A program made the position numbers and the translations under genes. Below are positions 29,740 through 50,595 of a stretch of DNA of 64,000 nucleotides, piece after piece; the stretch's first letter is position 1, and the number at the start of each line of letters is the position of its first letter. Under the pieces are notes generated by a model. The model worked only from the letters and a program-made list of their open reading frames with translations. It was not told the DNA's origin and searched no databases. Source of the stretch: a virus; IMG/VR virus record IMGVR_UViG_3300045988_039227, positions 32,001-96,000 of that record; one strand, given 5' to 3'.

Positions 29740-30406
29740 TTGGTTTAACGCTTGCTAATGTTGAATTATTGCTATCGTCACTAGGTCTTTTTAACATAAA
29801 TGCCAATTCGTTGGTCATGATAGCTCTTTTTATGTCAGGTATCATCCACCCAGGTATTATTACATCATCTTCACTATCAGCCGTTTGCGTTGGATCAAAT
29901 ATTCCTGTAACGTATATATATTTAAAATTTTCCACACCATCACCATCAACATATATATACTAGTCGTCAAACCAACATATTGGCTCGTTGTATGTATATC
30001 TCCTAAAGTTATGATAATGTTTTCTAGACTTATTCATGATCTAGATAACACAACCGCTAATATCTGCAACATTAACTATGTCGTCGCTACTATCTTCCAT
30101 TGTGTACAATTTCTTTTTTGTTCTCTTCCTTGTACTACAATGACAGCAACAAGAGTCCTCTGATCCAGGAGTTGGATCGTCTATAAGCTCAAGTGGTCCA
30201 ATGGTTGATAGCTAACTATCATCTGGATCTTCATCATCTCCAGTTTCAGAATCTTTATCATTCTACTTCTTGGACAAATAGGCCTTATACTACATTATCC
30301 AAGATAAGATCTAATCCCTAGACATATCCTCGCTCTCGCTTATGTTATTATTTCGTACAATAAGAAGTATGTCATCTATCAATGTACGAGCTGAGAATGT
30401 TTTCAT
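29714..30406 (-). CDS. Hypothetical structural protein, 230 aa, with an acidic linker and a CCCHC cluster
   Basis: ATG at 30406-30404 overlaps the TGA of the upstream gene (ATGA); TAA stop at 29716-29714. 6 in-frame TAG, no TAA/TGA. Confidence 0.65.
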
Positions 30407-31068
30407 ATTGCTTCTATTATTCTTATACTATCTTCTTTAAGTATATCATTTGTATTATGTATCTTATATTTATACACATCTTTCTTTTTCCAGTCAAATG
30501 TTATTAATCTCTTAAAGAAGTTCTTTTTGTTCTTATATTCTCTATGCTTATAAATGTAGAGGTACTAAGTATTCTATACATCTAGCTTAATATTAACACT
30601 ATCTTTACCGATTGTATAGTATACTTTAGTTAGGTTGTTATACTGTAAACTATCTCTGTAAACAGAGTCTTTAAGTATAGTTATAATATTACCCCCTACC
30701 CCCTTACTTTTATTAACGTTTATAATCTACTTCTAAGTTGCTGCTACCTAAATTTCTTTACTCTTTAGCTTCTCTACTTTGCGTACAGAGTCCAACTACT
30801 ATACAAGCTTATCATTATAATCTTTAAGCTTTTTCATGTCTAGCCTTAAAACACCAGAAGCCTACTAGGCACCATTTAAGGCATCCTAATAGGCTTCGAT
30901 GTTATTATTAGCCATTTTAAGCTCCTCTGAGAGCCTATTAGCTTTGTTGTGGTAGAATATACCAGACGCTAAACAAAAGGCTATTAGAAGCCCAGCAATG
31001 GCGTTAAGCAGCGTTTTGTAGTTGTTCTTTATCTTGTTTAATATCTACTACATCAGCATTGCTTTCAT
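30403..31068 (-). CDS. Spanin-like protein, 221 aa (N-terminal TM helix followed by coiled coil)
   Basis: First in-frame ATG at 31068-31066; alternatives at 31059 and 31053. TGA stop at 30405-30403. Has the TM-like segment LLNAIAGLLIAFCLASGIFY followed by heptad-like charged sequence. 12 in-frame TAG, including three TAG-TAG pairs. It sits last in the lysis cassette. Confidence 0.5.
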
Positions 31069-31309
31069 TATTGTTCAAATATTCTTTTAAATATGTTTTT
31101 ATCTCACCAAACTTACCTTGTATATAAATAGATACTCCATAGATACTAGCTGAATAAACTAATGTTTGGGCTACAAACCCTAGTACACCTGTGGAGATTT
31201 CACCCTACTATAAATACTGTACCCAGGTGAGAACCTAACCGCTCAAGAACGCGAGACATGCGGTTGAATACTAAATTTTCTCGCGCCATGTTCCTGTTAC
31301 TTTGCTCAT
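31004..31309 (-). CDS. Holin-like small membrane protein, 101 aa (two hydrophobic helices)
   Basis: ATG at 31309-31307 overlaps the TGA of the endolysin-like gene (ATGA); TAA stop at 31006-31004. 4 in-frame TAG, including the TAG-TAG pair at 31205..31210. Hydrophobic segments: YSTACLAFLSG-TAG-VLTWVQYL and ISTGVLGFVAQTLVYSASIYGVSIYI. Confidence 0.5.
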
Positions 31310-31731
31310 TTTATCTCAATAGTTACCTTTCCTTTAGCACAAGCATCCTTTATAATTGGATAGAACTTGTTTATGGTAGCTCTTGAGTTAAGGACCATTC
31401 CAACTTTCTTATTTTCCCCAAGCAGCAAACAACCGGCCGTATCTTCATGTGTTGAGCCAGCGTGTATACGAATACCTTCAAATGATGGTACATTCATCAG
31501 TTGAGGAGTATACTTCTTAAATCTAGGCGAATAGGTCCACTTAATCTCATAAGTTCCGTAAGGTATTGCTGTTTTGGCATATACCTTTTTCTCTCCGTTA
31601 TCAAATTTACCGTTCTTATTAAGATCTCTAACTGTATCTTCAAGTGTGTCGCAAAAATAATTACCATCAATATATAATCGTCCGATGGTATACGTAGAGC
31701 GTAAGGCTATTCTTTTAAGTGTTAATTTCAT
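31306..31731 (-). CDS. Putative endolysin / cell-wall hydrolase, 141 aa (His...Cys motif)
   Basis: Intact track ORF with no TAG; TGA stop. The motif GIRIHAGSTHEDTAGCLLLG is reminiscent of YkuD/L,D-peptidase-like catalytic His-Cys pairs (recollection). It sits immediately upstream of the holin-like and spanin-like genes. Confidence 0.45.
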   Translation of the reverse strand: MKLTLKRIALRSTYTIGRLYIDGNYFCDTLEDTVRDLNKNGKFDNGEKKVYAKTAIPYGTYEIKWTYSPRFKKYTPQLMNVPSFEGIRIHAGSTHEDTAGCLLLGENKKVGMVLNSRATINKFYPIIKDACAKGKVTIEIK

Positions 31732-33719
31732 TAATAATTAAGCGTATAGGGGCATACGAGTACACCGTTGTCAATATGTATTAAACGCACATGTATATTA
31801 TATTGCAGGTTAAAGCTATCTATAGACGTAAGCTTAGGGCCACCCTAAGTTGTTTTCATCACTTTAAATAAATTTTTGTAGTCTCCTGAAGATAATTTTC
31901 CTCCCATCAAACCACATGGATACATGTCTAAGACATTTCCTATAGAACTATAATCGTACCAATCGGAAATACTATAATTACCTGATGTATCTAATAAAAC
32001 AATCTACTGAGCACTTGTAAAGTTAATACTAAACCCATTAGCGCTACCTGGATATACAGAGCCCTTTTTAGACGAAAGACAGTCGGATGTAAGGGCAAAT
32101 GTACCAGATTTAGAAGGAAAATCAATATGATGACTAGCACTATCAGGCATACCAATATCTATTCCGTTATATCCGTATTTAGCACTGTGGTCGTCATTAT
32201 CTACCACAAGAAGGCTATCTATAGAATTATCATAACTCTAAGATAATCCATTTATATGTGCATAAGCAATACCGTTGTTATCAACACAAATTGGCCACTA
32301 AGTTCCAGTTGCCTTAGTAGTAACCTTAATGCCTCCTAAAGTAGTAGTTGAAGCTACAGGTAAAGTATATTTGTTAGCACCTTCTTCTATTCCATCAAGT
32401 TTACCCTTGTCCTTTTTGCTCATAAAGCCATCTGTACCGTTAGAGACATTCTCTATTGTTATCCATTCATCTTCACCGTTAGCCTTAATTACCCTTAGTG
32501 CCTGTGTAACTTTCGCTGAAGTTTGTGTCTAACCTACCTTCTGAATATAAATATTACTTACCGTCTCATCTTTCTATGAATAAGAAGATAAATCGCTAGA
32601 ATTAGCTTTGCTATCAATTAGTCCTTTTAATACTTTTCCTTGAGCTGCGCTTAAACTATCAGATGTAGAGTTACTTGTTAGATTATTCTGAATACCACGC
32701 CAGGTATTTGTATCCGTGTATTTATCTTGTGTCCATGCGCTCCAAGTTCCATTTAAACAAGTGCGTCTGTATGTATCTTTTGAATCAGTAGTTAAAATCT
32801 AGGTATAATAACTTCCTGATGCATTGTGCGTTACAATAAGTCCGATAGCATTTACTCCACTTGGTTTATTTAAAACATTATTAGAACCTCCGCAGTTATA
32901 AAATCCGGGAGCAATAATCTTATTTAAATCCGCATTTGCATCTAAGGTGATATTCACTGCTTTTGCTGCTAATTTAGAATTAATCTCAGACTCTGTATAA
33001 TACCGATCATCGTGTGTATGTGAAGATGGTGTAAACGAACTAGGCTTTCCAGTAACTTCTCCCCATGAAGGCCATCTCGTAGCTGTAGATGGCGCACCTG
33101 TAACCTAAGACCAAGTATGAGTATGACTAGAGTTAGCCTTACCATCAACTAATCCTTTCAGTACCTTGCCCTAGTTTGCGCTAAGTGAATCTGATGTACT
33201 AGTTGATGTTAAGTTATCTTGTATACCTCTCCATGTATTGGTGTCTGTAAATTTAGCTCCTGATGGTACATCAGTATTAACTGTGTGCCCATTAACTTTG
33301 GATGCATTAGATGCTGTAGAAGCGTTGCCCTCAAGTGCTCCTTTAAACTTAGCAGCTGCAACAATTCCAGGAAAAGATGTATTTCCATTAGCGTCTAGCA
33401 AAGTAGCAGTACGCTTAATAGTTGCGAACACGCCTATATACTATCTTACATATATTGGTTCGGTTGCATTTTCAGCAGTAGCTATCTCCATAAAGCCAGC
33501 GCTTTCCGCAGTCGCTCCTCCTCCTATTCTCCAAAAATCGTTCCCGCCACAAGTGCCCTTTATCTGTCGAAATGTTGTTCCGCTATCGCTGAACAACAAA
33601 TCGCCTGTTAAGGTTCCACCAGATAAAGGTAGGTAATTATGTGAATGATTTTTTAATGCAAATTTAGTTTTGCATATGGACCATAATAAGCCTACGCCTG
33701 TTTTATCGAGAAAATTCAT
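31731..33719 (-). CDS. Tail fibre protein, 662 aa, with an internal 41-aa repeat
   Basis: ATG at 33719-33717 overlaps the TAA of the upstream fibre gene (TAATG). The TAA stop at 31733-31731 overlaps the endolysin ATG (TAATG). Fragments 33441..33719, 33171..33431 and 32004..32207 are in one frame. 10 TAG, no TAA/TGA. The N-terminus MNFLDKTGVGLLW and the motif NKYTLPVASTTTLGGIKV are typical of fibres. Confidence 0.75.
32595..32717 (-). repeat. Intragenic repeat copy 2 (TDTNTWRGIQNNLTSNSTSDSLSAA-CAA-GKVLKGLIDSKANSS)
   Basis: Second copy of the 41-codon unit. CAA (Gln) at 32640..32642 occupies the column held by TAG (33171..33173) in copy 1. Confidence 0.7.
33126..33248 (-). repeat. Intragenic repeat copy 1 (TDTNTWRGIQDNLTSTSTSDSLSAN-TAG-GKVLKGLVDGKANSS)
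   Basis: A 41-codon unit that aligns residue for residue with 32595..32717. It is diverged at the DNA level. Confidence 0.7.
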
Positions 33720-34417
33720 TAAACTAGCAATGCTTTAAGGTCTGCATCAGATATAGCAGCAATACCATCAAGTTTAGCCTTGTCGCCAGCAGACATAAGA
33801 CCATTAGATGATGATGTAGCTAAACCATATGTAGTGTTATGGTCGGTCCATGGAACATTAACATACATCTGGTTATCGCTTAACTGTACAGCATAATTTC
33901 TATTAGCAGAGTTTGTTGCAAATCCAATCTTTACACCACCAAGTGCAGATGTAGTAGCTGCCGGAAGTGTATATTTGTTTGCTCCGGTCGCAATTCCTGC
34001 AAGTTTATTTTTCTCAGCTGTAGTATAATCATTAGTAGATAAACCCATTCCAGATACCTTATCTACTTTTGTGCCAAGCTTATTGTTTACATATTCTGTT
34101 TTTGCATAAGGCGCCAAGTCTACAGAACTTCTAAAGTCACCAAGTTTTTCCCATTTACCACCTACATACATATACTCTGAATAAGAGTTGTTTTCTATCG
34201 CAGAGTCTTTAACTAAATAAATCTTAGTTGTATCAATATTTTCTGTAGGAAGTGTTGTAACTACCTTGTAAAGAGACAGGTCAATCTAAATATTGCCTGC
34301 ACCCTTTACACTTGTGCCGTTAATTGTTTTAAACTACTAAGCGTCTATAGAAGATTTTACATGTTTTTTAACGGAGCCCCAAAGGGTTGCGACTCCGGTA
34401 GTATCAAGAAATTCCAT
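33719..34417 (-). CDS. Tail fibre protein, 232 aa
   Basis: ATG at 34417-34415, TAA stop at 33721-33719. 3 TAG, including a TAG-TAG pair at 34334..34339. The N-terminus MEFLDTTGVATLW and the motif NKYTLPAATTSALGGVKIG are shared with the neighbouring fibre genes. Confidence 0.7.
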
Positions 34418-34419
34418 AA

Positions 34420-34668
34420 TTATTTCGATTTGTATAAAGCCTTAGCCGTAATAGTATATGGTGTTGTATCATCCATATCTTTTCTAATGTATTTAGAATC
34501 ATTAATAGAGGCTGTAGGCAAACTGTTAATTGTTGTTTGTAATTGTGTTATAGTAGTCTAAAGATTATTAACCAACTACTGTAATGTGTTTATTTCGCTC
34601 TATGTTGCGAATTTCCCTTTAATCTTAGACCACAATACCTCAACACCAGTTTTATCAAGTATTTCCAT
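34420..34668 (-). CDS. Short fibre-family protein, 82 aa (N-terminal anchor module only)
   Basis: ATG at 34668-34666, TAA stop at 34422-34420, 3 in-frame TAG. The N-terminus MEILDKTGVEVLWSKIK is paralogous to the three neighbouring fibre genes. Confidence 0.55.
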
Positions 34669-34669
34669 A

Positions 34670-36535
34670 TTAAGTTAAGATTAAATTAAGTGTGTCAGAA
34701 CTGATAGGGGTAGCTACTGTGCCATCAGCTAGCAATATCTATTCACTAGTACCACCTGTCTTTATATACTTAGGTGATGTTAAATCGCCCGTAAGTGTAC
34801 CACCGGTCAAACGGAGATACTTATTAGCATCAGCTTTAAGATTAAGTGCATTCTGTGTGGCAGTAGAGATAGGTTTATTGATATCTGATGTATTATCAAC
34901 ATTATCAAGACCTACCTAAGCCTTAGTAACCTTATGAGGATTTTCGTAATTAGAAGTATGCTTGCTAAGGTTTGATGTAATTGTAGCTTCAGCCTACTTA
35001 GCACGCTGTATTTCGGCATTTAAAGCCGCTGTAGAGCCCTATTCAGACTGAGTTATACTATTCTTGATCTCTGTATCAGCAGCCTCTCTAGCAGCCTTCT
35101 CTGCGTTTACAGCTGTATTAATAGCATTCTATACACCTGTAATCTTTACGCCAGTAGAAGATACTGATAAGAAGTTTTCTGACAGAGGATCTATTTTAAC
35201 GTAAACCTTATGATTTTTTACTTCTAAACCATCAGAGAATTCAGTTTCCTCAAGGAATTTAGAATAATCAAGTTTAGCCAATTTGTAAGTACCATCAGCA
35301 AGGATGTATGATATACATAAGGCTGTAGATCCTACAGGATTACCAGCTTGAATTGTTCCATCATCTTTAAGCGTAGCATTCATATCAAGGACTTCAATAT
35401 CCTTGATAGACTAGTCTTTGGCGATATCGATTGTAACGCCTTTAGCTTCTCCGTTAACCTACAGCTGATATGATACTGCTGTAGATGAATCATTAGGAGT
35501 TACTTTTACTATTGTAGCACTACCAACCTTAGCTTCGAGGGCCTATTCTGCAGCTTTAGCTCTATCTGATTCAGCTTTAATAGCTTCTTTTCTATCTGAT
35601 ATTTCAGAATTTAAGTTATCTGTAAGAGTACCCTCTGCAGCTATGGCTCTATTCTATTCTGCTGTAATTCTATCTGAAAGACCATTCTCAGCAGTAGTAG
35701 CCCTACTTACTTCTGTAGCAATACTAGCTGAAAGCTTAGATTCTTCAGACTTAGCTCTACTAACCTCTGTATTCAACAATGTCTTAATAGCATCGTCTGC
35801 ATCTGATCTATTTTTAGCCTCCTACTATTCAGCTGCCTTTGCTCTGTCAATCTCGTTACTAAGGTTATTAGAAATAACCCTCTCAGCGCTTTCGGCTCTA
35901 GTCTATTCCTATTCAACCTTAGCTCTAATAAGATTATCTTCACTCTATCTTTCAGCTTTCTCATTAGCGTCGGCAGACTCTCTAGCTAACTTCTCTTTGT
36001 TATCAGCATCTTGTCTAGCTACTGTTTCAGCATTAATACTAGCAGTAAGAGATTCATCACCAGCTACTCTATTGTTAATTTCGTTAACAATATCATTGGT
36101 ATTCTTCTCTATCAGAATTCTGTTATCTTTTTCAGAGGCTTCTGCTCTATTCTTTTCTGCTGCTATAGTAGCTCTAATATCAGCCTCTTCAAACTTGGCC
36201 CTATCTATTTCAGCATAAAGACTATCAGCAAGCTATTTTCCCTTATCTCCAGGATAAGCTGTATTTGGCGTTTCGCCCAAAGCGATAGACTAACCTATCT
36301 CTACATATGTAGAACCACTCCATCTATATGTCAGATTAGTGTCTGTCGCTACATATATTTTACCTTCTTCGCCCTACTTAGGAAACGAAGATAAACTTCC
36401 GTATTCTTCAACATCATCAACATAAGAAGGTAACTATGAAGCAGGAACTTTACCATTATTGCTAAGATTAGCAAAGTTGCGTTTAATTCTACCCCAAAGG
36501 TATTCAACGCCATATTGATCTAAATATTGTTTCAT
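34670..36535 (-). CDS. Coiled-coil tail fibre protein, 621 aa
   Basis: ATG at 36535-36533, TAA stop at 34672-34670. All codons read: ~18 TAG, no TAA/TGA. N-terminus MKQYLDQYGVEYLWGRIK. A long Ala/Glu/Arg-rich heptad region (DRAKAAE-type) explains the antisense ORF 35643..36218. Confidence 0.75.
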
Positions 36536-36536
36536 A

Positions 36537-36806
36537 TTACTCTATTACTAAGATTTGTGAAAGAATACTCAAAGGAATGCCTTCGTTATCATTGATGTTA
36601 TCAATTCTAGTATTTATATTGTATACGTTATCTGTAAGTACATCGACTTTATTCTTAAAATACTAGTTAATATCATTCTGGCGACCAGTGTTTACATACT
36701 TAAGCATTCCATCATCGTATAACTAAAGGGCATCTGCTATGATGCCCTCAGTTGATACGCTTACTATTTTACCATTAATCTATAAATCTTCGTTATTTGG
36801 TTCCAT
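36537..36806 (-). CDS. Short fibre-associated protein, 89 aa (second N-terminal anchor family)
   Basis: ATG at 36806-36804, TAA stop at 36539-36537, 3 TAG. MEPNNEDL-TAG-INGKIVSVSTEGIIADAL is paralogous to the N-terminus of the 41317..42120 gene. Confidence 0.55.
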
Positions 36807-36853
36807 GGTGTATTATTTTATAATCACGATAATACTTTCTCTTATGTTTAAAA

Positions 36854-39800
36854 TTAAGTGCTCTATTTCTGTATTGTTACAGTATTATCTACGAAATACT
36901 TATTACTAAAAGTTGTTGCAATCATTTTATCTTCTGATATTGAATGATAAAAACGATCATACCATAAATTAGGATATATTTCCGCAGAATTATTATCTCC
37001 AAATTTTATAAGCCCGATAAAATCATTTATTGGGGCACTAAAGTTAATTCTATAAGGTAATTTTCCAACTTCTATTTTAATAGGTTTTATATATACATCT
37101 TTACTTGGACTGGTTTGAGTAAAATACACTTTACAGTTAATCGTATCGTCATCATTGGCATATGTTGAGTCAATGGAATCAATATTGATTCCAAAATAAA
37201 CATTCATGCCATCATTTATAAATTCCAAACTACTATAAGACATAGAGGTATTCTCAGTTTCCCAAGTAACTCCTTTTTGCCATTTGCCAACATTGTCTTT
37301 ATTTGTATCAAATGCAAAAACTCCACTATTAAAATAGTATGTAAACTTAGCACTTAATGTATAAAAATTACTTGGACCATCTAGGTCATAACTTGTACTA
37401 TAAGCTCCATATGAATAGCATAAAGCCTATTTTTCACTTTCAGATTTCTTTGTATACCCTGTTAATATAAACTATTTATCTTTTGATTCAACACTAGCAT
37501 CTTCGGAATCCTTATTATAAACACTATATGATAACCTTATGCTTTCCTTTTCTTTTACCCCATACCAATTAGTATAAAGATTACACTGTATAGAAATTAT
37601 GCCATTTTCATTAGTTAATGATTGCAATACGGTTTTACCATCAACTGTTGATTCATCACCTCCGTGTTCATTTAAATATTTAGATATAGATTTAAAGTCT
37701 ATAAATGAATATTCATTTCCTAGTCCAGTGTTATCTCCTGCAAAATACAAGAATTTTTGATAATCTGATATAATGGTGCCTTTATATCCTGCATAATTCC
37801 AGTTGTTTTTAGAGCTATCTAATACAGAATTAAGATTTACATAAGTAGCCTAATCTAAGTCTTTTCCAGAATTCCAGTTGTAAGTAAACATTACAGCGTC
37901 TCCAGAAATGATCTATATACCCTTTTTCTCTTGAATAAGCTATATTGTGCAGAATTTATTCTTCTATCCCGTTATACTTACACGGAATACAACTCCTTTA
38001 GATTCTGAATAGTCTGTATTCTCTTCTAATGGATAGAAGTCTACTAATGTACCACGTTTGTTAACGGAAAATTTGCTCTAAGGCGCATAACTTGTCACAC
38101 TATACTCTACAGCTTCTGTTGATACAACTTCATTTGATTCGTTTATAAATTCTTTATAAGCGTTTACATATACTGTCTTTTTAGAAGATTCACCATACTG
38201 GTCGCTCTACCAAACTAATGACACTGTATTATCATTGATTTTATCTGCACTTAATCCAACATATAGATGATACTTAGCAGTAAGCACTACGCGTTTACCA
38301 TCCTATGTACAATCAATAGTAACAGACTTATCGTTCTTGGTTATAGTTTCGGTCCATTCTTTCTACTGTGTAGATGTATTAGCTTCTGCTGTTATTTCTT
38401 CCTCTGTTGTAGTTTCTTCAAACTTCTGATTATCATTGTCGTTAGTTTGCCAAGTGTACCAAGTAGTTACAGAGACACTTTGTGTTCCACCAGCTGCCTC
38501 AAAATGCAAAGATGTAGGATCTGCAGAAATACCCCAAACTTTAACATTAGCTTCTTGAGTATATGACCACTAAAGTTCTTTATTTGAACCATCTTGAATA
38601 AGTTTGCCACTCTCAGTTACCTCTTGATCACTGTAATTATATCCAGATGGTCTTCCTATTTGTCCAGAATACTAAACGTCCTCTTTCTTAACTGTACCAA
38701 ATGTACCTGTTTTAGTTCTATAAGAAGTTATGCCATCTAACGTAAAGCCATCAGCATGCTTAATCTCTTGACCATTTGCATAGTATTGTCTACTCCATGA
38801 TGTACCAGTGCTAGATCCGCCATTGGTATCGCTTATATTATACTCAAATACATATGTCCAATCTTCAGGGAACTCTTCAGCTTTGTTTGGTTGCGTCCAA
38901 AAAACTTCAGCAGTAGGAGTCTGAGATGAATCGTTATTATAGTAATACGTTTTACTACCACTTCTAGATGATTGTGTAGTATTTGCATCTACTGTTATCG
39001 TATCAGATATACTACCAATCTCCTTTCTTGTGCCAAGCGTTCCAGTTAAACCATACGTTCCAGTTATATCTACTGATCCACCATCTGCAGGGAACGCAAA
39101 CTGTGTTGGAGAAACATCTATCCATCTATGTTCTGTGTCATCTGGGAACTCTTCAGCATATGTTACTATAGATGTTGCCTTTAATCCATTATATTGTACA
39201 GATATTGTTCCGGTACAATTAACACTAGATGCAGCAGAAGTAAACTGCATTCCGTCTTTAGAATGTGAGAAAGACTGACCAGACACATGAGTATCACTAA
39301 TAGTATAATCAATAGTAGGATGCTCTATTGTATCAGAAGCATTTAGCACAACATTTACTGATCCATCTCTAGAAATAGTACCAGAAGTATTATCCCAAGT
39401 TTTTGTTGTCTTTACTCTACTGTAGTTAACAGTAAACTATTTTGACAAACCTTCATTCAAACTCCATGACGATGGTAATAAAGAAATAGTGCCATCATTA
39501 TATGATTCGCCTACTCCACCTCCATTTACAGTAAAACCAACAGACTATGGTGCCTCACTTTCGGTTCTTACTCTAACGGTGTATTGGAATGTATAATTAT
39601 TACCAGATGTTGTATATCTTGTAATAGATGTCCCATTTATAGTTACAGTAGGTACAGAATCACATGTGGCTACAAGTGTATAAGTACAATCTACATCAGC
39701 CTCTTTAGCTTCCTGTATAATAGTAATAGTATCAGACTTTCCTGTAGCATTAGAACCAGTTATATGACCAGTTCTCTAATCACCAATATTTGGACTTACA

Positions 39801-40162
39801 GTAAATCTTATTTCGGTACCGTTTATCACGATATTTGTAATCCAATCTACGTCAGATGTAGCATTGTATGGTATTGTGTTACCATCTATATCTCTTGATG
39901 ATACAGACGTTGTATATGTATTACCTGAAGCCTGTGGATTATATCCCTTATTAGTAAAAGAGAAGTTGCTAAGATCCGGTTTATCTTCAACAGAGAATAT
40001 ATCTATATACTCATTGTTAAGATACTGCGACAAATTAGATGTAATATCCTTTCTGTGAGCCTGTGCTATTTCTACAGCAGCAGACTTAGTTATGCATTCA
40101 TTTGTACCAGATGCGTCGTCTCCTACAAGCTAATAAACTTTTTTATATGTTAATATTTCCAT
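36854..40162 (-). CDS. Large tail fibre/spike protein, 1,102 aa, with repeated Ig/BACON-like beta modules (inference)
   Basis: ATG at 40162-40160, TAA stop at 36856-36854. Fragments 39776..40033, 38672..39349, 37472..37750 and 36863..37243 are in one frame. All gaps read: ~17 TAG, no TAA/TGA. Both the N-terminus and the C-terminal domain are paralogous to the 40165..41310 gene. Confidence 0.75.
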
Positions 40163-40164
40163 TT

Positions 40165-41310
40165 TTATGATTTATTAGTCTCAATACTAAACATTCCGCT
40201 ATTAAAGTAATATGTAAACGTAGCTGATAATGTCATATTCAACTAAGGGTTATTGTAATTATTTTTGCCTTGTGTATCACAATATGACTGAATGGCATTA
40301 CGACCAGATTCTCTAACGCCATTTATATTAAATGTGTAGTCTCCAGCGTCATTCCAACTAAAGTTGTCTCCAGACTTATTGTATGCGATATAATTAATAT
40401 TTATATCATGACCATTAGTATTATACCATACAGTATATAGATATACTTTACAAGTAAGAAGACCGTTCTGGTCCGTAATAGCCTATATCATCGTCTGACC
40501 AGTTGTTGATATTTTGTCTCTATTTTCGCTTATATACTTAGCTATAGAATCGAAATCAACCAAAGCGTGCTCTTGACCCATTCCAGTGTTGTCTCCAGCA
40601 AATCCTAGAACGTTAATTCCATTAGGGAGTGATACTCTGCTATTTGTTCCAAAACCAACATATATATCTTGCACACCATTTACAAAGCATGCAACAGTTG
40701 TTGCCTGGTTAAGATCTGTACCAGTACTCCAACTATAAGTAAAGTCGACAACATCGCCACAAACTAATTCAATACCAGTTCTAACCTATATCAAATTAAT
40801 TTTACACTCCTTTGATTCGTCTTCGCTGTTTATTACTTTAATATTTTCTACTACAAACTAACTATTTGTATTTTCGTCTTTAGGCCAAAAAGAATAACCA
40901 TCTGTATTATTTACGTATTCAAACTTTTCTGGTTCTATCAGAATTCTACATTCGACAGGATTGTCACTAAGCTTCTATCCAGTGATAAGATACGTATGTT
41001 TGAGAGCCTTTACATATATTCTTTTTGCATCGGAATTATTCTTAGCCTATGCTGAAAATATTGCTTGAGCAGTATCGCTCCAGCTCTCATTGTCATACGA
41101 TACCTGTATAGAATATTCGACCCTAGTCTAGCTTTCACATTCGAACTCATCTATAAGTTCTGAATCAGAATAGCTAGAAAGGTCGTTAGTTATTCTCTTT
41201 AGCTTCTAACTAGCAATATCTTGAGCTTCACTTTTAGTAATAATCTCATTTGTACTTAATGAAGTAGCTCCGACTTCATTATATACTTGTTTTTGTGTTA
41301 GAAGCTCCAT
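40165..41310 (-). CDS. Tail fibre/spike paralog, 381 aa
   Basis: ATG at 41310-41308, TAA stop at 40167-40165, 8 TAG, no TAA/TGA. The N-terminus MELLTQKQVYNEVGATSLSTNEIITKSEAQDIA and the C-terminal FAGDNTGMG...FTYYFNSGMF match the 36854..40162 gene. Confidence 0.7.
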
Positions 41311-41316
41311 AATAGA

Positions 41317-42120
41317 TTAATCTGTAATTTTAAAGAAATGCTGAGCATTTACATTGCTAATACCGGCTGCAGGAGTAAGTGTACCTCCGTTCTTAACCCA
41401 GTATCTATTGAGAACCTGCTCAATCTTGCTCTCAATATCATTACCACCAATAGCTTGCTGAATCAACTGGTTTATTTTGTTTTCGATGTAGTTTGTAACA
41501 TCGTTGTTCTACTTAATAGTAGAGCTAAGATCACCAGCTACCCACCGGCCATTTGTGTAGACAAGTACATTGCCCTCTCTACCTTCTGGCAAGAAAGCTT
41601 GTGCTCCTGTACCGTTAATCTTTCCGTTGATAGTAATATTGTTAAGAGTTGTATTTCCGTCAACTCTAAGGTCGCCTTCGCTCTTTATAAGATTATGAAC
41701 TGTAAGAGTATTACAGTCTAACTGAAGAGCTTTAAATACGCCCATTACATCGAGGTCGTTGCAAGTGATCTTATGGTCAGCCTGGATACTAACAGGATTA
41801 CCATGAGCTGTAAGCTTGTCATAAGCATCAAGTGTGCCACGAATTTCCTGATTGCCATTTATATCCTAGTTACCACGAACAGTCTGATCACCTTCTACGG
41901 TAGTATTACCCTCGAACACAGCATCGCCATGGAATGTAGCTCTATTAAACTCCGGATTACTTTTAAAGTCTTCCATTTTGTTATCGATGCTCTTTACAAC
42001 ATCTTCAATAGAAGACTTGTTTTTCTCAGACCAGATCTAACTAGCATCTGCAACAATGCCTTCTGTTGAGACATTTACAAGCTTACCATATATCTGAATA
42101 TCTTCGTTTGTTGCGTTCAT
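41317..42120 (-). CDS. Tail fibre-family protein, 267 aa
   Basis: ATG at 42120-42118, TAA stop at 41319-41317, 3 TAG. The N-terminus MNATNEDIQIYGKLVNVSTEGIVADAS is paralogous to 36537..36806. Confidence 0.7.
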
Positions 42121-42122
42121 GA

Positions 42123-43505
42123 TTATTTATTCTTAAATTTAACATAAACAGTAGAACCGCCTGTAGAAACGTTTCTCTTCATTGGATTAGGGCAGCAATA
42201 ATAATATCTAGAATCATTAAGCTTATGCTGAGGCTTAGTGAGAGGGATGTATGTTGCTGCGCCAACATTACCAACGCCCTGTGTATTAATGTTAGCAGCG
42301 TACAAGATAGGTTGACGTGTAACAATCCACAAGTACTGTCCATCTGTATCGTTCTCTACAGTAGTAGCGTCTGTAAGACTATTTACCTTTGTAAGAAGTG
42401 CAAGGTTTACATTCTCTACACCAACTGCATTGAAAGATTCTTGATCCTTTGTCTCGAAAGACTGATCCTTACGGTTAAATCCATATTTGTAATCGTCTTC
42501 CATATTCTCTGGGAATGGACGTACTGGCAAGAAGCCAATGTAATCATAATCGCCACCAATTACAGTAACGTTAAAACCGGTGCTAACTTCGTTATTTTTA
42601 GCTGACACTGTTACGTATGTTGATACTGTATCATTCTAATCAAGAGCCTTAATAAGACCCGTGTGCTGATCAATTACTACAACACCAGTCTTAGCTGCAT
42701 GGAAGTCGAGCTGTTCGTAAGGCCAGTTGTCTGGAGTATACTCAAGTACCGAACCATTCTCTAGCTCTACTTCAATATAATACTGATGATCTCTTGTGTC
42801 GAGTTCTCCTAGTCTAAGAGATGTATTGCCATACATGTTAAGGTCGCCCTTAACTCTAATGGACAAAATATTCTTATTCATAAGATCGTCCTTATCTACA
42901 TCAAGTGTAATGTCGCCACTTGCACCAGACTTATCGTCTACAAGTTGAAGAACGTCACCGTAGTCCATTGTGTATGTATGGAGATCTGTGCGACCCCAAC
43001 CTGGTTCATAAATCATAGCCTGTACAACGAGTTTGTATACACCACAGAACATCTGATCCTTTGCAGGGAAGTAGCACTGAATAGAGTTAGCCTTAGGCAG
43101 AACTCTAGAGTATGCCAAATATGTAAAGTCCTCACAAGCGCAGCAATTTACAGCATCATATGCCTTTCTGTACTTTGGTGGCAATATGCCAGGTCCTGCT
43201 GCAGGATTGCAACCATGAGGGTCAAGCATGCATCGGAAGTTATGACTACAATAATAGTCATTGTGACAGCAGTCATGATGATCACAGTGTGGCAATACAT
43301 GATATTTTGGATGACCACACATATTCGTCATATATCCACAACCATGAACATGCTTATTGCAGAAGCAATCGACTGGAAAATAGTCGAGCATTGATGTGTT
43401 AATTAAATAACACTTAAGCTGTTTGATATTAGCTTGATCGTACGTACGTGGACCACGAAGTGTAAGATTTAATCTTATATCGTTTCCAATTCTAATTCTT
43501 TGCAT
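42123..43505 (-). CDS. Structural protein with a Cys/His-rich insert, 460 aa
   Basis: ATG at 43505-43503, TAA stop at 42125-42123. Track ORFs 42636..43565 and 42123..42608 are in the same frame and are joined by a single TAG at 42636..42638. The TTG-start extension in the track covers the upstream terminator, so I rejected it. Confidence 0.7.
43134..43367 (-). other. Cys/His-rich segment: 10 Cys and 10 His in 53 residues, plus a downstream CCxC
   Basis: DCFCNKHVHGCGYMTNMCGHPKYHVLPHCDHHDCCHNDYYCSHNFRCMLDPHGC at residues 46-99, then NCCACE at residues 120-125. Confidence 0.8.
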
Positions 43506-43521
43506 ATTATAATATGTGTTT

Positions 43522-43563
43522 AAAAACAAAAAGCCGAGATAGGGTAAGAACCCCCACCCCGGC
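43522..43563 (-). terminator. Intrinsic terminator specific to the minus-strand transcript
   Basis: The minus-strand RNA is GCCGGGGUGGGG-GUUCUUA-CCCUAUCUCGGC followed by UUUUUGUUUUU. This gives a 12-bp stem in which three pairs are G-U. Those three pairs would be A-C mismatches in a plus-strand transcript. It starts 7 nt after the TAA of 43570..44694. Confidence 0.7.
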
Positions 43564-43569
43564 AATTAA

Positions 43570-44694
43570 TTAAAAGTTTGCTTTATCGTAAGCAGCAGAG
43601 TTGTCAACTGGGTTAACAATGTTCTGACGAGAAGCGATCATAGTCTAGAGCTTTGTAATAAAGCCATCTGCAATCTGATCAGCACCCATAGCCTCACCAT
43701 TGTTAGAAGCGTAGATCTCAACTGTCTGCTTTGTTCTACGCCAAAGATCATCAGCTGTACGGTACTGGTTCTCAAATTCGATAGTAATACCGTCGTACTT
43801 GTTATCGAGATTTGTTACCATAGCTGGCTGAGGATCGTACCAGCAGCAACGGTGCAAAACGCCCTGATAGTCAAATGTAGCACGCTCGCGATCACGTACC
43901 AATTTAGCTGTTGCTGGGTATGTAACGCCTTCCTTCTTAGAGAAGACAACACCGAGGTCGTACTTGTTATTTGAAGCCCAACCTGGAGCAGCAGGGTTCA
44001 TCCAATACATGTTTGCATCGAAACGACCCTTCATGTAAACGTTCTCTGTTCTATTAGACTCATCGTCATCATACTTCATCTGTGTAAGAACGAGCTTCTG
44101 ACCATCGATCTTAGCATATACACGCTGACGCTTTGGAGCGCGGATAATATCCTTGATCAAGCCAGCAATAATGCTTTCTACAGTGTCACCAACCTTTGTT
44201 ACGTAGCTGTATGACTCTGTCCATTTACGATAGCGCATTGGCATATCCTTGAAAGTAAGACGGAGAACAACTGGGCAACCACCCTATGCGAGGAGATCCA
44301 TAGTCTCAGGAGCAATACCGCTGAAATCGATTGTAATCTCATCCTCAGAATCCTCCTTATAGTCAAGCTTAGCAACAGACTTGATATCTGCCACATTGAT
44401 AATGTTAGACCACTTTACAACTGGTACAAATGTAACATTACCAAGCTTATCAACCTTCTGGAAGCTATCAGATGTAACAACACCAATCTTAAAGCGATCA
44501 GCTGCTGCATCCATCTTATAAACATCCTCAATAGCAGTACCATCCTGCTTAGCTGGATCACAGTTCATAAATACGAACTTACCAACCAATGGCTTAAGAT
44601 CTTCCTTCTTAGCCTTACCCTTCAACTCTTCTGCAGTAGCGAGGGTTTCACCGTTCTTGTTAGAAACGAGAACTGAATTTACGTATGTAATCAT
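43570..44694 (-). CDS. Virion structural protein, 374 aa, possibly abundant
   Basis: ATG at 44694-44692, TAA stop at 43572-43570. Track ORFs 44284..44694 and 43645..44244 are in the same frame and joined across TAG (2 TAG in total). It is followed by the strongest terminator in the window, and its codon usage looks more GC-rich than its neighbours. Confidence 0.7.
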
Positions 44695-44773
44695 ATTAAA
44701 ATTAATTTTTTCTACTCACCCTATAATATTAACACTAGACCTAACTAGCTGGGCTTTCCACGTTAAAATTATG

Positions 44774-45469
44774 TTATTCTTGTGTATCTACCTCTTGAGT
44801 TATAGTTTTATAGCGCTCATCTTTTTTGTTTTCCAAATACATCTGAGCTGCAATTTTTATAATCTCGGGCATAATAATATCCTCGAAATCCTCATATTCA
44901 TCATAAGGATTATCAAGTGTTATTTCTGTAGGCTTTCTGAGATAACCTAAAGAATATTTACTAATCTTGTATTGCTTGTCTGTAAGCAACATGCATCCAT
45001 TAGAGTTTCTTACACGTAGAGGTCTAGCTCTATGAAATCTGTAATGGAAGTCTGTAAGACTGTTGTTGACTCTGTACATAAAACTATCCTGTGTACATTC
45101 AAACATACATGTATTGATTTTATTCTCTCCATCAAGGTCGCTTATCACGACGTCCTCATTGAGTGAGAACATGAAGTCTTCTGGATAGATTATTGTATAA
45201 GATGTATATGACGGTTGATTTTCATCTACAATCATACTTCTTAATGTATAAGTTTTCTATTTGTATAGCTTAATAAGATCAGTTCTACGCTTTTCATTTT
45301 GTTCATACGAAGTTCCGTGAACAAGATCGCTATTAAACCTAAGCTTAATAAACTTACCAACAGCCTAATTAAGCCAGAATAAAGATTCGTCAGTAGATGG
45401 TTTGTCTAACTGGCTATCAAATTTATTTATCTCTCTTTCTAGCCCCACCAAAATATCTATATTCTTCAT
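44774..45469 (-). CDS. Hypothetical head/neck-class protein, 231 aa
   Basis: ATG at 45469-45467 overlaps the upstream TAA (TAATG); TAA stop at 44776-44774. 2 TAG. Extends track ORF 44774..45235 upstream. Confidence 0.65.
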
Positions 45470-46212
45470 TACTCAGCCTCCTACTATTTTGGTTGTGATT
45501 GTTTAGAATTACCCTAAGCAAGCTTTAGTTTATACCGATTCAAATACATGTCCACAGCTCCTGATACAAGTTCCTCAAAACATGAGTACGGGAGTGAACA
45601 GTAGCTATGTACAGCTCCAGCCGATTGATCATTATCATCAAACTTTAATACATTGAATGCATTAGGCTGGCAGTAGTATGTAAGATCTACACTTTCTATC
45701 TATGTATATGTGTCAGATATAACTTTAAACTAATTACTTGTATAACTAGTATTTTCGAATACAACTAATGGGTTCTTTATGATTCCCTTGTAGTTGTAAT
45801 ATGCATTGATTACATTGTCTACATCTTCTTGCTTAACAAGTATGTTAGGCGTAATTACGCCATTTTCTAAAACCTTATCACTTTTGTAATTTTTTGTAAC
45901 GATGCTTTCAGATCTTACGTACATTGCATAATTGTCTGGAAGGTTATATATGCCATCATCATTTGATGTCTTTATATTAACTCGCCTAATTAAAGATCTA
46001 CTAACATCGCTTATTCTTTTAGCTCGTCTAGTACCACGCTGAAAATCGTCTTCGGTAGAATACAGTATTTTAACATACTGTGTCTAGAACTCGCTTAAGA
46101 ATGAATATATCGCATCGGTATTAAGTTTTTGTTCTGATGCAAACTAAGGATATACTTCAATCAGTCTGCGCTCAAACTCAATACCAAGTTTTCTTGTTTC
46201 TTCTCTTGTCAT
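45469..46212 (-). CDS. Hypothetical head/neck-class protein, 247 aa
   Basis: ATG at 46212-46210 overlaps the upstream TGA (ATGA); TAA stop at 45471-45469. 7 TAG, including a TAG-TAG pair at 45481..45486. No TAA/TGA. Confidence 0.65.
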
Positions 46213-46937
46213 GATTCAAGTGGTCTAGTATTAGCTTTAGTAGCAAGTCTACTAGATTCTACAATCTCAGTAGACATAATAATTGCCAAATTAATTAATT
46301 CTTCAGCCATGCTATCAGATAGTTCAAATTCAGTCTATCCGAAATCATAGTCGGTTACTGACAGTCCTTGTCCGACAGCGAATTTTGCAGGACGTTTAAT
46401 AAACGTAAATTCAGCTTTTGACTGAGCTCCATTATATTGTACATCCATTGGATCTACGTATATTACAACGTTATTATTTTCTATACACCCTACAGGCTAT
46501 TCAACCCAAGGTAAATTTATTTTTGTAGCTCTAAACTTTTTGGCAATATCATGCGATACGAATACTATGTTTTCATACTGATGATCAATATCGTCATGAG
46601 AGGTAATGCTTCCCTTAATTTCTATTTCTCCATCAATTATGTACAAAATAAGATTATTCATAGTGTGTGTACTAAATGTATAGCTATTATCGCCAGATAA
46701 ACTACCAATGGCTGTGAATTTATTAATCAATGGCTACAAATCTTCAGTTGCTTTCATATCTGACTCAAACGCTGACTTTCTTGGATTATTCCCTGTATAT
46801 TTTTGAGCTATAAGAGCTAAGTAGGCTTTGTCGAGTATTGTTGCAACTTCATATTTAGTTAGCGACGGATATGACGAAGTTATATTTGCCTTGTCATATT
46901 CAATCATAAACTTAGTATAAATATCACTATGCGTCAT
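46209..46937 (-). CDS. Hypothetical head/neck-class protein, 242 aa
   Basis: ATG at 46937-46935, TGA stop at 46211-46209. Track ORFs 46734..46937 and 46497..46730 are in the same frame. 3 TAG. Confidence 0.65.
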
Positions 46938-46949
46938 ACGTCGTTAGTT

Positions 46950-47705
46950 TAATTATTTATTTTCGACCTGATTAATAATCGAGATCTTTAAGTCTTGATT
47001 CTTCTTTGCGTCCAAGTATGCAATACAATCCTGTAATGAGTCTGCAAGCATCTCAGAACCATAGTAATACTGTGTTCTATCCTTACGGATAATACCTTTG
47101 GCAATAGCACTCTCGATCAAGAACTCTGTTTCCTTTGTCTTATTATTAACCCACTTTGTAAAGAAGTTCTGTGGCTACTTATCAACCAATGAGAACAGTG
47201 TAGACTCTACAAGCTCATTAGACATTGTATCAGCACTAACACCGAACAGTCTAAGACACTTACGCATCTCTTCAAGAGAAAGCTTACCAAAGGCGATAAT
47301 AGCGTCTCTACGAAGCTTGTTAATCTTATTCTTCTCAATAGCTTCAGCCTGTCTATTAATAAGCAGGTAATCTTTGCCAGCATTGAGTTTATCGAGTGAT
47401 GTAGCTACTCTCTTATGTCCCTCAAGGAACTTAATGATCATAGCCTGACGTGGGAATGAGTCATCGAGGATTGTGCTCTTAGATCCAACCTTAACACAGA
47501 ATGTATTCCAGAATGGGGAATTCTTAGCGAGATGGCCTTCTGGATAGCCAAGCTCCTTTTCAAATTTCTTTTCGTCCTCAGGTGTTAAACCTGTGTATAT
47601 CGACCCAGATCTGGTAAAGTAAGGTGCAATATAATCAAAGCAATGCTTGTACTTTAACAATCCAGCCCAGGGATTTTTCTTTCTGATTTTTAATTCAACT
47701 ACCAT
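46950..47705 (-). CDS. Hypothetical protein, 251 aa, immediately downstream of the capsid gene
   Basis: ATG at 47705-47703, TAA stop at 46952-46950. Track ORF 47175..47705 ends in TAG, and the frame stays open for a further 74 codons. Confidence 0.6.
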
Positions 47706-47847
47706 AATTTTTCAATTAGTTGTTGCAATGCCAAGCTCCCGTGTACTATCCGTCTTTTATCGTGTAGCACGCCCGTTGCCGAATAGTCAAATCCCACGGA
47801 AGATTATTGGAATCCACGGGGTTGAACATTGTATATTATTTAATTAA
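47706..47847 (-). other. Longest non-coding spacer in the window (142 nt), with nested inverted repeats
   Basis: Nested stems in plus-strand coordinates: 47738-43 with 47815-20 (6 bp), 47745-52 with 47780-87 (8 bp, one G-U on the minus-strand RNA), and 47761-64 with 47768-71 (4 bp). There is also a direct repeat (T/A)CCCACGG / ATCCACGG at 47792-99 and 47812-19. Confidence 0.4.
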
Positions 47848-49380: not shown

Positions 49381-49398
49381 AATATGTTAATTGTCTCA

Positions 49399-50595
49399 TC
49401 ATAGGTATTTTGACGCGAGATCCCATGCCTGAGGTTGTTTTTCATGCCCAACATTGTATGATGTATGATTTTTTGTTTGGTGTTTGAGCATTTGTCTAAG
49501 TTTACTCGCAGCAGATGTCTGACCATTGCGCTGTGCTTCGCCCAGTAGAGCATCACCCTTCATTGTGAAGTAGGCTGATTCTATCAAATTGTTAACAAGG
49601 TTATTATTAAAAGCCTTCTGATACTCTGTTAAACCGTCTGCATCAGTTCTTGTAATATAATCGAACAATGCCTTTCTATCCTCTTTTGGGATATTTATAC
49701 CTCTAATATTAGTAAGACCATTTATACTATAAGTAAGGTCATCCATGAACTGTGCAGCTTGCTGCTCCTACTATTGTCTTTGAGCTTCCTGTTGCTGAGC
49801 CATATACTCTTGCTGTTGCTGTTCGTACGCCTTAAGATAATTTACAGCATCAGCTGCTTCATCTTCCAGCATGTCAGCATCTTCATAGCGCTCAATCTTG
49901 CGACTAATCTGTTCGTCATTCATGCCCTATAATTTGTAGAACTCACGAACAGCTGCTTTCTGATTAGATTCGTCCTCCAAATCTATGCTATCGTAAGACA
50001 TAGATTTCTGTTGTGTCTGATAGAAGTCTTCAAATTTACCACCATTCTTTACGTACTGATCAAGTTTAGCAATACGATCATCGGCGTACTGTGGGGTTGA
50101 ATTCTCATCTACGACATCTTTGATATACTCCACGAGGTCCTCGACTGACTTAGGCTTCTCGTCTGCATCAACACTCCAACCATTAGCTTCAGCGAATGCG
50201 TCAAAGAAAGCACCAATCTATTCTGCTTCTCCAGGATCTACGACGTCAGTGTCAGTCTGCTGATTATTATCATCATTGTCGTTATCCTATTCGTTGTCAA
50301 CTGTAGTTGTGTCGGACGTATTATTATTTAAAATATTATCTGGTATCTCTGTCTCATCATCATGAGCATTAGGGTCACCAGTTACATTCTTATTATCTTT
50401 ATTATCCTCAGAAGACTTATCGTCATCTGGATTGTCTAAATTTTCAACATCATCATTAGGGTCGTCTAACACCTGATTAACCACATCCTGGTTATCGATG
50501 TTTGTAACGCTGTCGCCACCTTCCTGGCCACTGAACCCGAGAGAGTTCAAAGCGTCTTCAAAATCACCTAATGGATTTTTCTTCTTTCTTGCCAT
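49399..50595 (-). CDS. Scaffolding-like protein, 398 aa (acidic low-complexity N-terminus, Gln/Glu coiled coil)
   Basis: ATG at 50595-50593, TGA stop at 49401-49399. Track ORFs 50287..50595, 49927..50133 and 49399..49746 are in one frame. 5 TAG, including a TAG-TAG pair at 49768..49773. It ends 18 nt upstream of the capsid gene. Confidence 0.55.

What the first reader, a model, noticed from the sequence alone, without database searches (positions are those of the whole stretch)
32595..33248. Intragenic repeat in a fibre gene aligns TAG with CAA (Gln)
The fibre gene 31731..33719 contains two diverged copies of a 41-aa unit. Copy 1 reads ...DSLSAN-TAG-GKVLKGLVDGKANSS, with TAG at 33171..33173. 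Copy 2 reads ...DSLSAA-CAA-GKVLKGLIDSKANSS, with CAA at 32640..32642. The flanking residues align without gaps, so TAG occupies a column that is Gln in the sister copy. This supports the amino-acid assignment using only this window.
Basis: seen in the sequence. Interest (0 to 1): 0.7.

Follow-up and report, generated by a model that had tools for sequence, protein, structure and literature searches.

The report
Amber codon read as glutamine
A gut crAss-like phage uses the stop codon TAG as an ordinary glutamine codon, and a duplicated motif inside one tail-fibre gene shows this neatly, but the recoding is already known and confirmed by mass spectrometry in related phages, so the finding is correct and ordinary.

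Summary
The minus-strand fibre gene 31731-33719 (662 codons, 10 in-frame TAG, ends in TAA) holds two diverged copies of a Pfam PF22337 tail-fibre repeat. They align without gaps, and TAG 33171-33173 lies opposite CAA 32640-32642.

The column is one of the most conserved in the family. It is Gln in 47/47 unique repeats from standard-code viral contigs and in 362/378 unique repeats from 145 diverse proteins; the queries were masked at that column.

Three independent tests agree:
- Against the ~90%-identical phage cr7_1, changed TAG codons are CAG or CAA in 93 of 130 cases and never TAA.
- A likelihood test over standard-code relatives puts Gln 40 nats ahead of Glu.
- cr7_1 and most close relatives carry a tRNA with anticodon CUA just beyond the window's right end.

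The window is a Suoliviridae (delta-group) crAss-like phage. TAG-to-Gln (code 15) was predicted for this group by Yutin 2021 and Borges 2021. Peters 2022 confirmed it by proteomics in two crAss-like phages.

One exception exists: a recoded relative has TAT (Tyr) at this column, one base from TAG.

The parts
31731..33719 (-). Tail-fibre gene: 662 codons, 10 in-frame TAG, terminated by TAA at 31731-33
   Evidence: Pfam PF22337 x2 and PF11133. PHROG tail-fibre families. An orthologue with 86% aa identity and the same length is in L172.
33108..33254 (-). Repeat copy 1 (aa 156-204), KFTDTNTWRGIQDNLTSTSTSDSLSAN-TAG-GKVLKGLVDGKANSS...
32577..32723 (-). Repeat copy 2 (aa 333-381), KYTDTNTWRGIQNNLTSNSTSDSLSAA-CAA-GKVLKGLIDSKANSS...
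   Evidence: best Pfam stretch is aa 343-376
33171..33173 (-). TAG codon 183, at the near-invariant Gln column of the repeat
   Evidence: The TAG is kept at the same site in orthologue L172. Relative P0108 ends exactly at ...SLSAN.
32640..32642 (-). CAA (Gln) codon 360, the same column in copy 2
   Evidence: CAA is kept in L172.
33441..33443 (-). TAG codon 93; close homologues read TEPIYVRQY
33105..33107 (-). TAG codon 205; Gln in 25 of 50 residue-aligned homologue segments (SHTHKKSQITDFP)
32799..32801 (-). TAG codon 307; homologues read SGNYYTQILTT (Gln 26/40)
32574..32576 (-). TAG codon 382
   Evidence: also TAG in L172
32529..32531 (-). TAG codon 397, in a divergent stretch
32298..32300 (-). 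TAG codon 474
   Evidence: also TAG in L172
32238..32240 (-). TAG codon 494
   Evidence: also TAG in L172
32004..32006 (-). TAG codon 572; CAG in orthologue L172
31845..31847 (-). TAG codon 625; CAG in orthologue L172
32724..32870 (-). Knob-like domain between the two repeat copies (aa 284-332); weak match to the R-type pyocin tail fibre 6CL5
   Evidence: E = 0.003 for the whole sequence; weak
32304..32648 (-). Stretch resembling the phi29-type head fibre (PF11133, aa 358-472)

Best explanation
The window is the late (structural and lysis) arm of a crAss-like phage of the family Suoliviridae that uses genetic code 15: TAG is a sense codon for glutamine, and TAA and TGA remain stops.

The fibre gene holds two old copies of a PF22337 tail-fibre repeat. 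Its ...LSA-x-Q-G-K-x-L... core has a near-invariant Gln. Copy 1 spells that Gln as TAG and copy 2 as CAA.

Decoding is most likely done by a phage-encoded amber-suppressor tRNA (anticodon CUA). In close relatives this gene lies a few kb beyond the window's right end.

Shown here: the repeat, the conservation of the column, the Gln-like behaviour of TAG across the window, and the CUA tRNA in relatives.

Inferred, not shown: that this phage itself carries the tRNA, that the tRNA is charged with Gln, and that recoding serves to time late-gene expression.
For: 1. Repeat and column
- Ungapped 49-aa alignment, about 21 SD above shuffles; 22 synonymous codon differences.
- Gln at the masked column in 47/47, 53/54 and 362/378 unique homologous repeats. 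It ranks with L24, A26 and G29 as the most conserved positions.
- PDB 4MTM, a phage tail fibre, carries ALSAAQGKVLN.

2. The gene is read through
- All 10 internal stops are TAG.
- With TAG read through, minus-strand ORFs tile the whole window. All end in TAA or TGA, and none has an in-frame TGA or TAA.
- There are 454 in-frame TAG, against 363 CAG and 329 CAA.

3. Codon exchange with cr7_1 (8922 aligned codons)
- Window TAG -> TAG 123, CAG 32, CAA 15, all others 18 (TGG 1, TAA 0).
- In the reverse direction: CAG 36, CAA 10, others 19.
- TAG is retained at 65%, similar to CAG (67%) and CAA (70%).
- In fibre orthologue L172, window TAG codons 572 and 625 are CAG.

4. Likelihood test over standard-code relatives (cr1_1, Azobacteroides phage, crAss001, Fpv1; 118 column-by-subject observations): Gln is best, Glu -39.6 nats, Tyr -146.

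5. Paralogues within the window: Gln is the commonest residue opposite TAG, 4 of 16.

6. tRNA(CUA)
- Present in cr7_1, where the record calls it tRNA-Gln.
- Present in 8 of the 13 closest relatives (loci 90-96% identical in the query protein), 2.5-5.6 kb upstream of the homologue of the last window gene.

7. Literature
- Delta-group crAss-like phages reassign TAG to Gln (PMC7886860).
- LC-MS/MS peptides show Gln at TAG in two crAss-like phages (PMC9523058).
Against: - No tRNA gene lies in the window itself.
- In 5 of the 13 closest relatives no CUA tRNA was found within the 10-kb flank.
- The suppressor's amino-acid identity could not be established. Its similarity to crAss001 tRNAs does not single out Gln, and the genome scan for host tRNA-Gln returned only phage-like contigs.
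- One recoded relative (L171) has Tyr (TAT) at the column.
- There are no protein-level data for this phage.
Confidence: 0.96

Rival explanations
1. TAG is a sense codon but stands for a residue other than Gln, such as Tyr, Met, Glu, Lys or Trp.
For: The recoded relative L171 has TAT (Tyr) at this very column, one base from TAG. Met occupies the column in 3% of family repeats. ARAGORN labels CUA tRNAs 'Pyl' by default.
Against: - The likelihood test puts Glu at -39.6 nats, Met at -89.5, Tyr at -146 and Trp at -214 relative to Gln.
- TAG exchanges with TAT or TAC in only 5 of 130 changed pairs and with TGG in 1, against 93 with CAG or CAA.
- The column is Gln in 96-100% of homologues.
- Mass spectrometry in related phages found Gln.
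Confidence: 0.02
2. TAG is still a stop, and the 'gene' is a string of short ORFs or a decaying pseudogene. The alignment would then pair a nonsense codon with Gln by accident.
For: Under code 11 the region breaks into fragments, and public gene calls for relatives are such fragments (P0008, P0108).
Against: - 454 in-frame TAG lie in every kind of essential late gene, including TerL (10) and portal (15), with no in-frame TAA or TGA.
- Protein-level conservation continues across the TAGs: 22 synonymous differences between the copies, and an 86%-identical orthologue keeps 7 of the 10 TAGs in place.
- TAG is never replaced by TAA in cr7_1.
- No gene ends in TAG.
Confidence: 0.01
3. TAG does mean Gln but is not equivalent to CAA or CAG. 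Suppression is late or incomplete, so the share of TAG in a gene tunes when and how much of it is made. This is an added layer on the best explanation, not an alternative to it, and the TAG in the fibre repeat would be one of many such dials.
For: - The major capsid gene has 16 CAG, 0 CAA and 0 TAG (P about 3e-4).
- Six of the eight genes at 41317-50595 (capsid module) have a TAG share of only 0-21%.
- The Rz-like spanin at 30403-31068 uses TAG for 12 of its 13 Gln codons.
- In cr7_1, + strand (early) genes use TAG for 11 of 205 Gln-type codons, against 517 of 1164 in the minus-strand (mostly late) genes.
- The same pattern and idea were published by Borges et al..
Against: The evidence is only correlative. 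Codon-usage differences could reflect expression-linked codon bias without any timing role. There are no expression data.
Confidence: 0.3

Closest known systems
Genetic code 15 (TAG -> Gln) in crAss-like phages: Yutin et al. 2021 (PMC7886860), Borges et al. 2021 (bioRxiv 10.1101/2021.08.26.457843), Peters et al. 2022 (PMC9523058)
   Same: In-frame TAG in TerL, portal and tail genes. Recoding is concentrated in the late arm. A CUA suppressor tRNA is present in relatives. TAG columns match Gln. The spanin is strongly recoded.
   Different: Nothing of substance. This genome is a different species: about 90% nucleotide identity to cr7_1 over shared modules, with a different fibre module.
uncultured phage cr7_1 (NC_055895, Burzaovirus coli, Suoliviridae) and cr124_1
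   Same: 79-96% nucleotide identity over the head, portal, terminase and part of the tail region. Same strand layout. Same TAG usage: 123 shared TAG codons.
   Different: Window 31740-43458 (the fibre genes) and 1-21000 (giant ORFs) have no blastn match in cr7_1, which carries a 7.5-kb CotH-like gene instead.
Pfam PF22337 Phage_fiber_rpt; tail fibre gp53 of Acinetobacter phage AP22 (PDB 4MTM)
   Same: The motif ...LtS.....aLSA.QGK.L... with Gln at the same place.
   Different: In the window one of the two Gln codons is TAG. The match to 4MTM is marginal (E = 0.067) and covers 24 residues.
E. coli supE-type amber suppressor (tRNA-Gln with anticodon CUA); from general knowledge, not tested here
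   Same: A CUA-anticodon tRNA that would insert Gln at UAG. The phage tRNAs begin with U1 paired to A72 or G72, as bacterial tRNA-Gln typically does (the comparison is from memory).
   Different: Here it is phage-encoded and serves hundreds of codons as a normal part of the code. Its charging identity is untested.

Membership tests
TAG->Gln (code 15) recoded phage | In-frame TAG in conserved essential genes, which become full-length when TAG is read through | tested here: met
   TerL has 10 TAG, portal 15 and the fibre 10. ORFs tile the window.
TAG->Gln (code 15) recoded phage | TAA and TGA keep their stop function, and TAG is not used as a terminator | tested here: met
   All 35 ORFs end in TAA or TGA, and none has an in-frame TAA or TGA.
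TAG->Gln (code 15) recoded phage | TAG columns correspond to Gln in homologues that use the standard code | tested here: met
   The likelihood test favours Gln by 39.6 nats. The repeat column is Gln in 96-100% of homologues. TAG exchanges with CAG or CAA in 93 of 130 changed codon pairs.
TAG->Gln (code 15) recoded phage | A suppressor tRNA with anticodon CUA in the phage genome | tested here: inconclusive
   None in the 64-kb window. Present in cr7_1 and in 8 of the 13 closest relatives, just beyond the window's right end. This phage's own sequence there is not available.
TAG->Gln (code 15) recoded phage | The suppressor is charged with glutamine | tested here: inconclusive
   The RefSeq record calls it tRNA-Gln. 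Sequence similarity to crAss001 tRNAs is not discriminating. The scan for host tRNA-Gln returned only phage-like contigs.
TAG->Gln (code 15) recoded phage | Peptides with Gln at TAG positions | not testable with these tools
   Shown for two other crAss-like phages by LC-MS/MS (PMC9523058), not for this one.
Pfam PF22337 Phage_fiber_rpt | Score above the Pfam gathering threshold | tested here: met
   61.7 bits against a cut-off of 27, in 2 stretches.
Crassvirales, Suoliviridae (delta group) | Close similarity of MCP, portal and TerL to classified members | tested here: met
   About 92% nucleotide identity to cr7_1 and cr124_1 over 82-83% of a 10-kb stretch. The portal is 96% identical in protein.

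The most novel reading that the evidence does not exclude
Recoding changes which mutations are one step away. Once Gln is written as TAG, Tyr (TAT or TAC) becomes a single-base neighbour. This may be how an otherwise near-invariant fibre Gln became Tyr in the recoded relative L171. Together with the absence of TAG from the major capsid gene and its 92% share in the spanin, this would mean TAG is a functionally distinct 'second-class' Gln codon. It would shape both expression and the evolutionary paths open to receptor-binding proteins.
Probability: 0.25. Interest if true: 0.3.

Novelty: already known. Interest (0 to 1): 0.15.

Why it matters
For annotation it matters a great deal. Under the standard code this 64-kb window breaks into hundreds of fragments, and its fibres, portal, terminase and a 5161-codon giant ORF are missed.

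As biology it adds no new principle. TAG-to-Gln recoding of the late genes of delta-group crAss-like phages is published and has been confirmed by mass spectrometry in two crAss-like phages.

The intragenic repeat is a clean within-sequence control, usable when no homologues are at hand. The near-invariance of the column makes it a good teaching example.

Tried and rejected
- DNA search of the fibre gene against GenBank phages found nothing. The fibre module is not shared with the nearest genomes, so protein and HMM routes were used instead.
- Establishing the suppressor's Gln identity failed twice. Global similarity to the 23 crAss001 tRNAs compared did not single out Gln.
- P0108, a 97%-identical fragment ending at ...SLSAN, could not be traced to its contig.
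- The sequence search of the PDB gave only weak hits: 6CL5 knob (E = 0.003) and 4MTM motif (E = 0.067). No structure prediction was run, because a monomer model of a trimeric fibre would not bear on the question.
- Rfam found nothing in the window.
- cr52_1 was dropped from the likelihood test because it is itself recoded: 20 in-frame stops in the aligned subject.
- An ungapped codon comparison with L172 was misleading because of compensating indels. It was redone on a protein alignment.

Full report
**1. The observation**

The fibre gene lies on the minus strand from 33719 (ATG) to 31731 (TAA). Its frame holds 662 sense codons. There are ten internal stops, all TAG: codons 93, 183, 205, 307, 382, 397, 474, 494, 572 and 625. 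There is no internal TAA or TGA.

A local self-alignment pairs aa 156-204 (33108-33254) with aa 333-381 (32577-32723) without gaps. 37 of the other 48 positions are identical. The BLOSUM62 score is 188, against 41.7 +/- 6.9 for 300 shuffles.

At the DNA level the copies are only 65% identical. There are 22 synonymous and 12 non-identical codon differences. The duplication is therefore old and the peptide is under purifying selection on both sides of the TAG.

**2. What the repeat is**

Both copies match Pfam PF22337, 'Phage tail fiber repeats' (61.7 bits, cut-off 27). The region after copy 2 matches the phi29-type head-fibre family PF11133. PHROGs gives tail-fibre families.

Between the copies lies a knob-like segment with a weak match to the R-type pyocin fibre 6CL5. 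A profile of the repeat picks up the AP22 tail fibre 4MTM, which reads ALSAAQGKVLN (marginal E-value).

The gene is the last of three tandem fibre genes: 34670-36535, 33719-34417 and 31731-33719. They share an N-terminal M.(F/Y)LD..GV..LW motif. The fibre gene lies next to a lysis cassette.

**3.

All queries and models had X at the column, so they cannot favour Gln.

- A database search with copy 1 returned about 100 repeat-bearing proteins. 53 of the 54 unique repeats have Gln.
- A scan of IMG/VR gave 77 loci. An HMM built from the two masked window copies found 103 repeat instances covering the column, making 47 unique sequences, and all have Gln. The codons are CAG 91 and CAA 12. The ORFs that hold them, up to 1236 codons long, have no in-frame TAG apart from a single TAG in L009, so they use the standard code.
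- A full HMMER pass over 1.84 billion cluster representatives gave 1811 hits. In the best 145 proteins, 362 of 378 unique repeats have Gln. The rest are Met 11 (9 of them in one protein), Lys 2, Ala 2 and Arg 1.

Together with L24, A26 and G29, this is one of the four most conserved positions of the repeat.

There is one exception. P0008 (contig L171) has TAT (Tyr). That contig is itself recoded: a TAG follows ...HSWS and the frame continues ISGAPATATRWPSWG. Its repeat is also altered at other conserved positions.

**4. Other TAGs in the same gene**

- Codon 93 aligns with Q in close homologues (TEPIYVRQY).
- Codon 307 aligns with Q (SGNYYTQILTT; 26 of 40).
- Codon 205 aligns with Q in 25 of 50 residue-aligned segments.

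The 86%-identical orthologue in L172 keeps TAG at codon 183 and CAA in copy 2. It has CAG where the window has TAG at codons 572 and 625. The public translation of that orthologue already writes Q at its TAG codons.

**5. Window-wide tests independent of the repeat**

With TAG read through, minus-strand ORFs tile the whole window. They include a 5161-codon ORF with 124 TAG. Every ORF ends in TAA or TGA. In frame there are 454 TAG, 363 CAG and 329 CAA, so TAG is the commonest of the three.

The window is about 92% identical to cr7_1 and cr124_1 over the head, portal and terminase region. These belong to Burzaovirus, Suoliviridae, Crassvirales.

Over 8922 aligned codons, window TAG corresponds in cr7_1 to TAG 123, CAG 32, CAA 15 and anything else 18. 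TGG occurs once and TAA never. The reverse comparison gives CAG 36, CAA 10 and others 19. TAG is retained as often (65%) as CAG (67%) and CAA (70%). It therefore behaves as a synonymous Gln codon.

Against four standard-code relatives (cr1_1, Azobacteroides phage ProJPt-Bp1, crAss001, Fpv1), the residues opposite 118 TAG positions were compared with the empirical substitution profile of each amino acid. They fit Gln best. Glu is next at -39.6 nats and Tyr is at -146.

Using the window alone, the paralogue pair 36854-40162 / 40165-41310 puts Gln opposite TAG in 4 of 16 columns. Adding the fibre repeat makes 5 of 17, against a 3.3% background for CAA plus CAG.

**6. Mechanism**

The window has no tRNA gene. 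cr7_1 has a tRNA with anticodon CUA at 9123-9194, which its record calls tRNA-Gln.

Of the 13 closest relatives of the last window gene (90-96% protein identity), 8 carry a CUA tRNA. It lies 2.5-5.6 kb upstream of that gene, just beyond window position 64000.

In cr7_1 the + strand (early and replication) genes use TAG for 11 of 205 Gln-type codons. The minus-strand (mostly late) genes use it for 517 of 1164. This matches the published picture of a code switch in late genes.

I could not establish the amino-acid identity of the tRNA. That step, and the presence of the tRNA in this particular genome, remain inferred.

**7. Comparison with what is known**

- Yutin et al. 2021 reported TAG reassigned to Gln in many beta-, delta- and zeta-group crAss-like phages, mostly in late genes, with suppressor tRNAs.
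- Borges et al. 2021 described the same pattern and found spanin and amidase genes preferentially recoded.
- Peters et al. 2022 detected peptides with Gln at TAG positions in two crAss-like phages.

Every sequence-level defining feature of code 15 that I could test is met. The suppressor tRNA and its charging are inconclusive for this genome. Protein evidence is not testable here.

**8. Verdict**

The phenomenon is already known. The intragenic repeat is a valid and rather elegant internal control, because the column happens to be near-invariant in the family.

On its own the column is worth a likelihood ratio of only about 30 over Met. The firm assignment comes from the window-wide tests and the literature.

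Interest is low (0.15). The small residue of novelty has two parts. One is the single Tyr (TAT) variant in a recoded relative, a one-step change that is not available from CAA or CAG. The other is the sharp contrast in TAG use between the capsid gene (0 of 16) and the spanin (12 of 13), which fits the published regulatory hypothesis but does not test it.

Noticed in passing
window 47848-49380 (major capsid gene); also 41317-50595: The capsid gene writes all 16 Gln as CAG, with no CAA and no TAG (P about 3e-4 given a 40% TAG share in the window). Six of the eight genes in this module have a TAG share of only 0-21%.
   Followed up: partly
window 30403-31068: An Rz-like spanin (phrog_739, E = 7e-6) uses TAG for 12 of its 13 Gln-type codons. 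This is the lysis-gene bias reported by Borges et al. The neighbouring gene 31306-31731 (phrog_1501; its cr7_1 counterpart is annotated 'putative transpeptidase') has no TAG, but only one Gln codon.
   Followed up: partly
L171 (contig of P0008), codon aligned to window 33171-33173: A TAG-recoded relative has TAT (Tyr) at the otherwise near-invariant Gln column. It also has His at the second conserved Gln of the repeat. TAT is one base from TAG but two from CAA or CAG.
   Followed up: partly
window 31740-43458 and 1-21000: These stretches (three fibre genes, two paralogous tail genes, the giant ORFs) have no nucleotide match in cr7_1, although the flanks are 87-96% identical. cr7_1 has a 7.5-kb CotH-like gene in place of the fibres, so the receptor-binding module has been swapped.
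   Followed up: partly
window 50668-52427: A 630-codon gene with 15 TAG has no counterpart in cr7_1; only its last 135 bases match. It looks like an insertion between the scaffold-like gene and the gene upstream of the portal.
   Followed up: no
window about 56705 (TerL, 56059-58122) versus cr7_1 99993-101302: cr7_1 has about 1.3 kb of extra sequence inside TerL that the window lacks. It is probably an intron or homing element in cr7_1.
   Followed up: no
L086 7168-7240, L087 5711-5783, L089 6370-6444 and 6784-6857, L090 7659-7731, L112 5945-6019: In close relatives, ARAGORN reports tRNA-like genes with 2-base or 4-base 'anticodons'. Most lie beside tRNA-Met, and where a CUA suppressor is present, between the two. 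Their nature is unexplained.
   Followed up: no
L167 and L168 (150-186 kb contigs binned into bacterial MAGs): These contigs carry both a CUA and a UUA suppressor tRNA within 8 kb. Several ~101-kb contigs labelled as Segatella copri MAGs (L166, L169) carry the same CUA tRNA and are probably phage genomes, which hints at the host.
   Followed up: no
window 36854-40162 and 40165-41310: Two adjacent genes are paralogues: 51% identical over the first ~60 residues and 32% over ~300 C-terminal residues. The second looks like a shortened copy of the first.
   Followed up: partly
L079 (cr7_1) 4850-5809: The relative cr7_1 has an annotated reverse transcriptase next to a tail protein and the CUA tRNA. 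It may be a diversity-generating retroelement. It lies outside the window.
   Followed up: no
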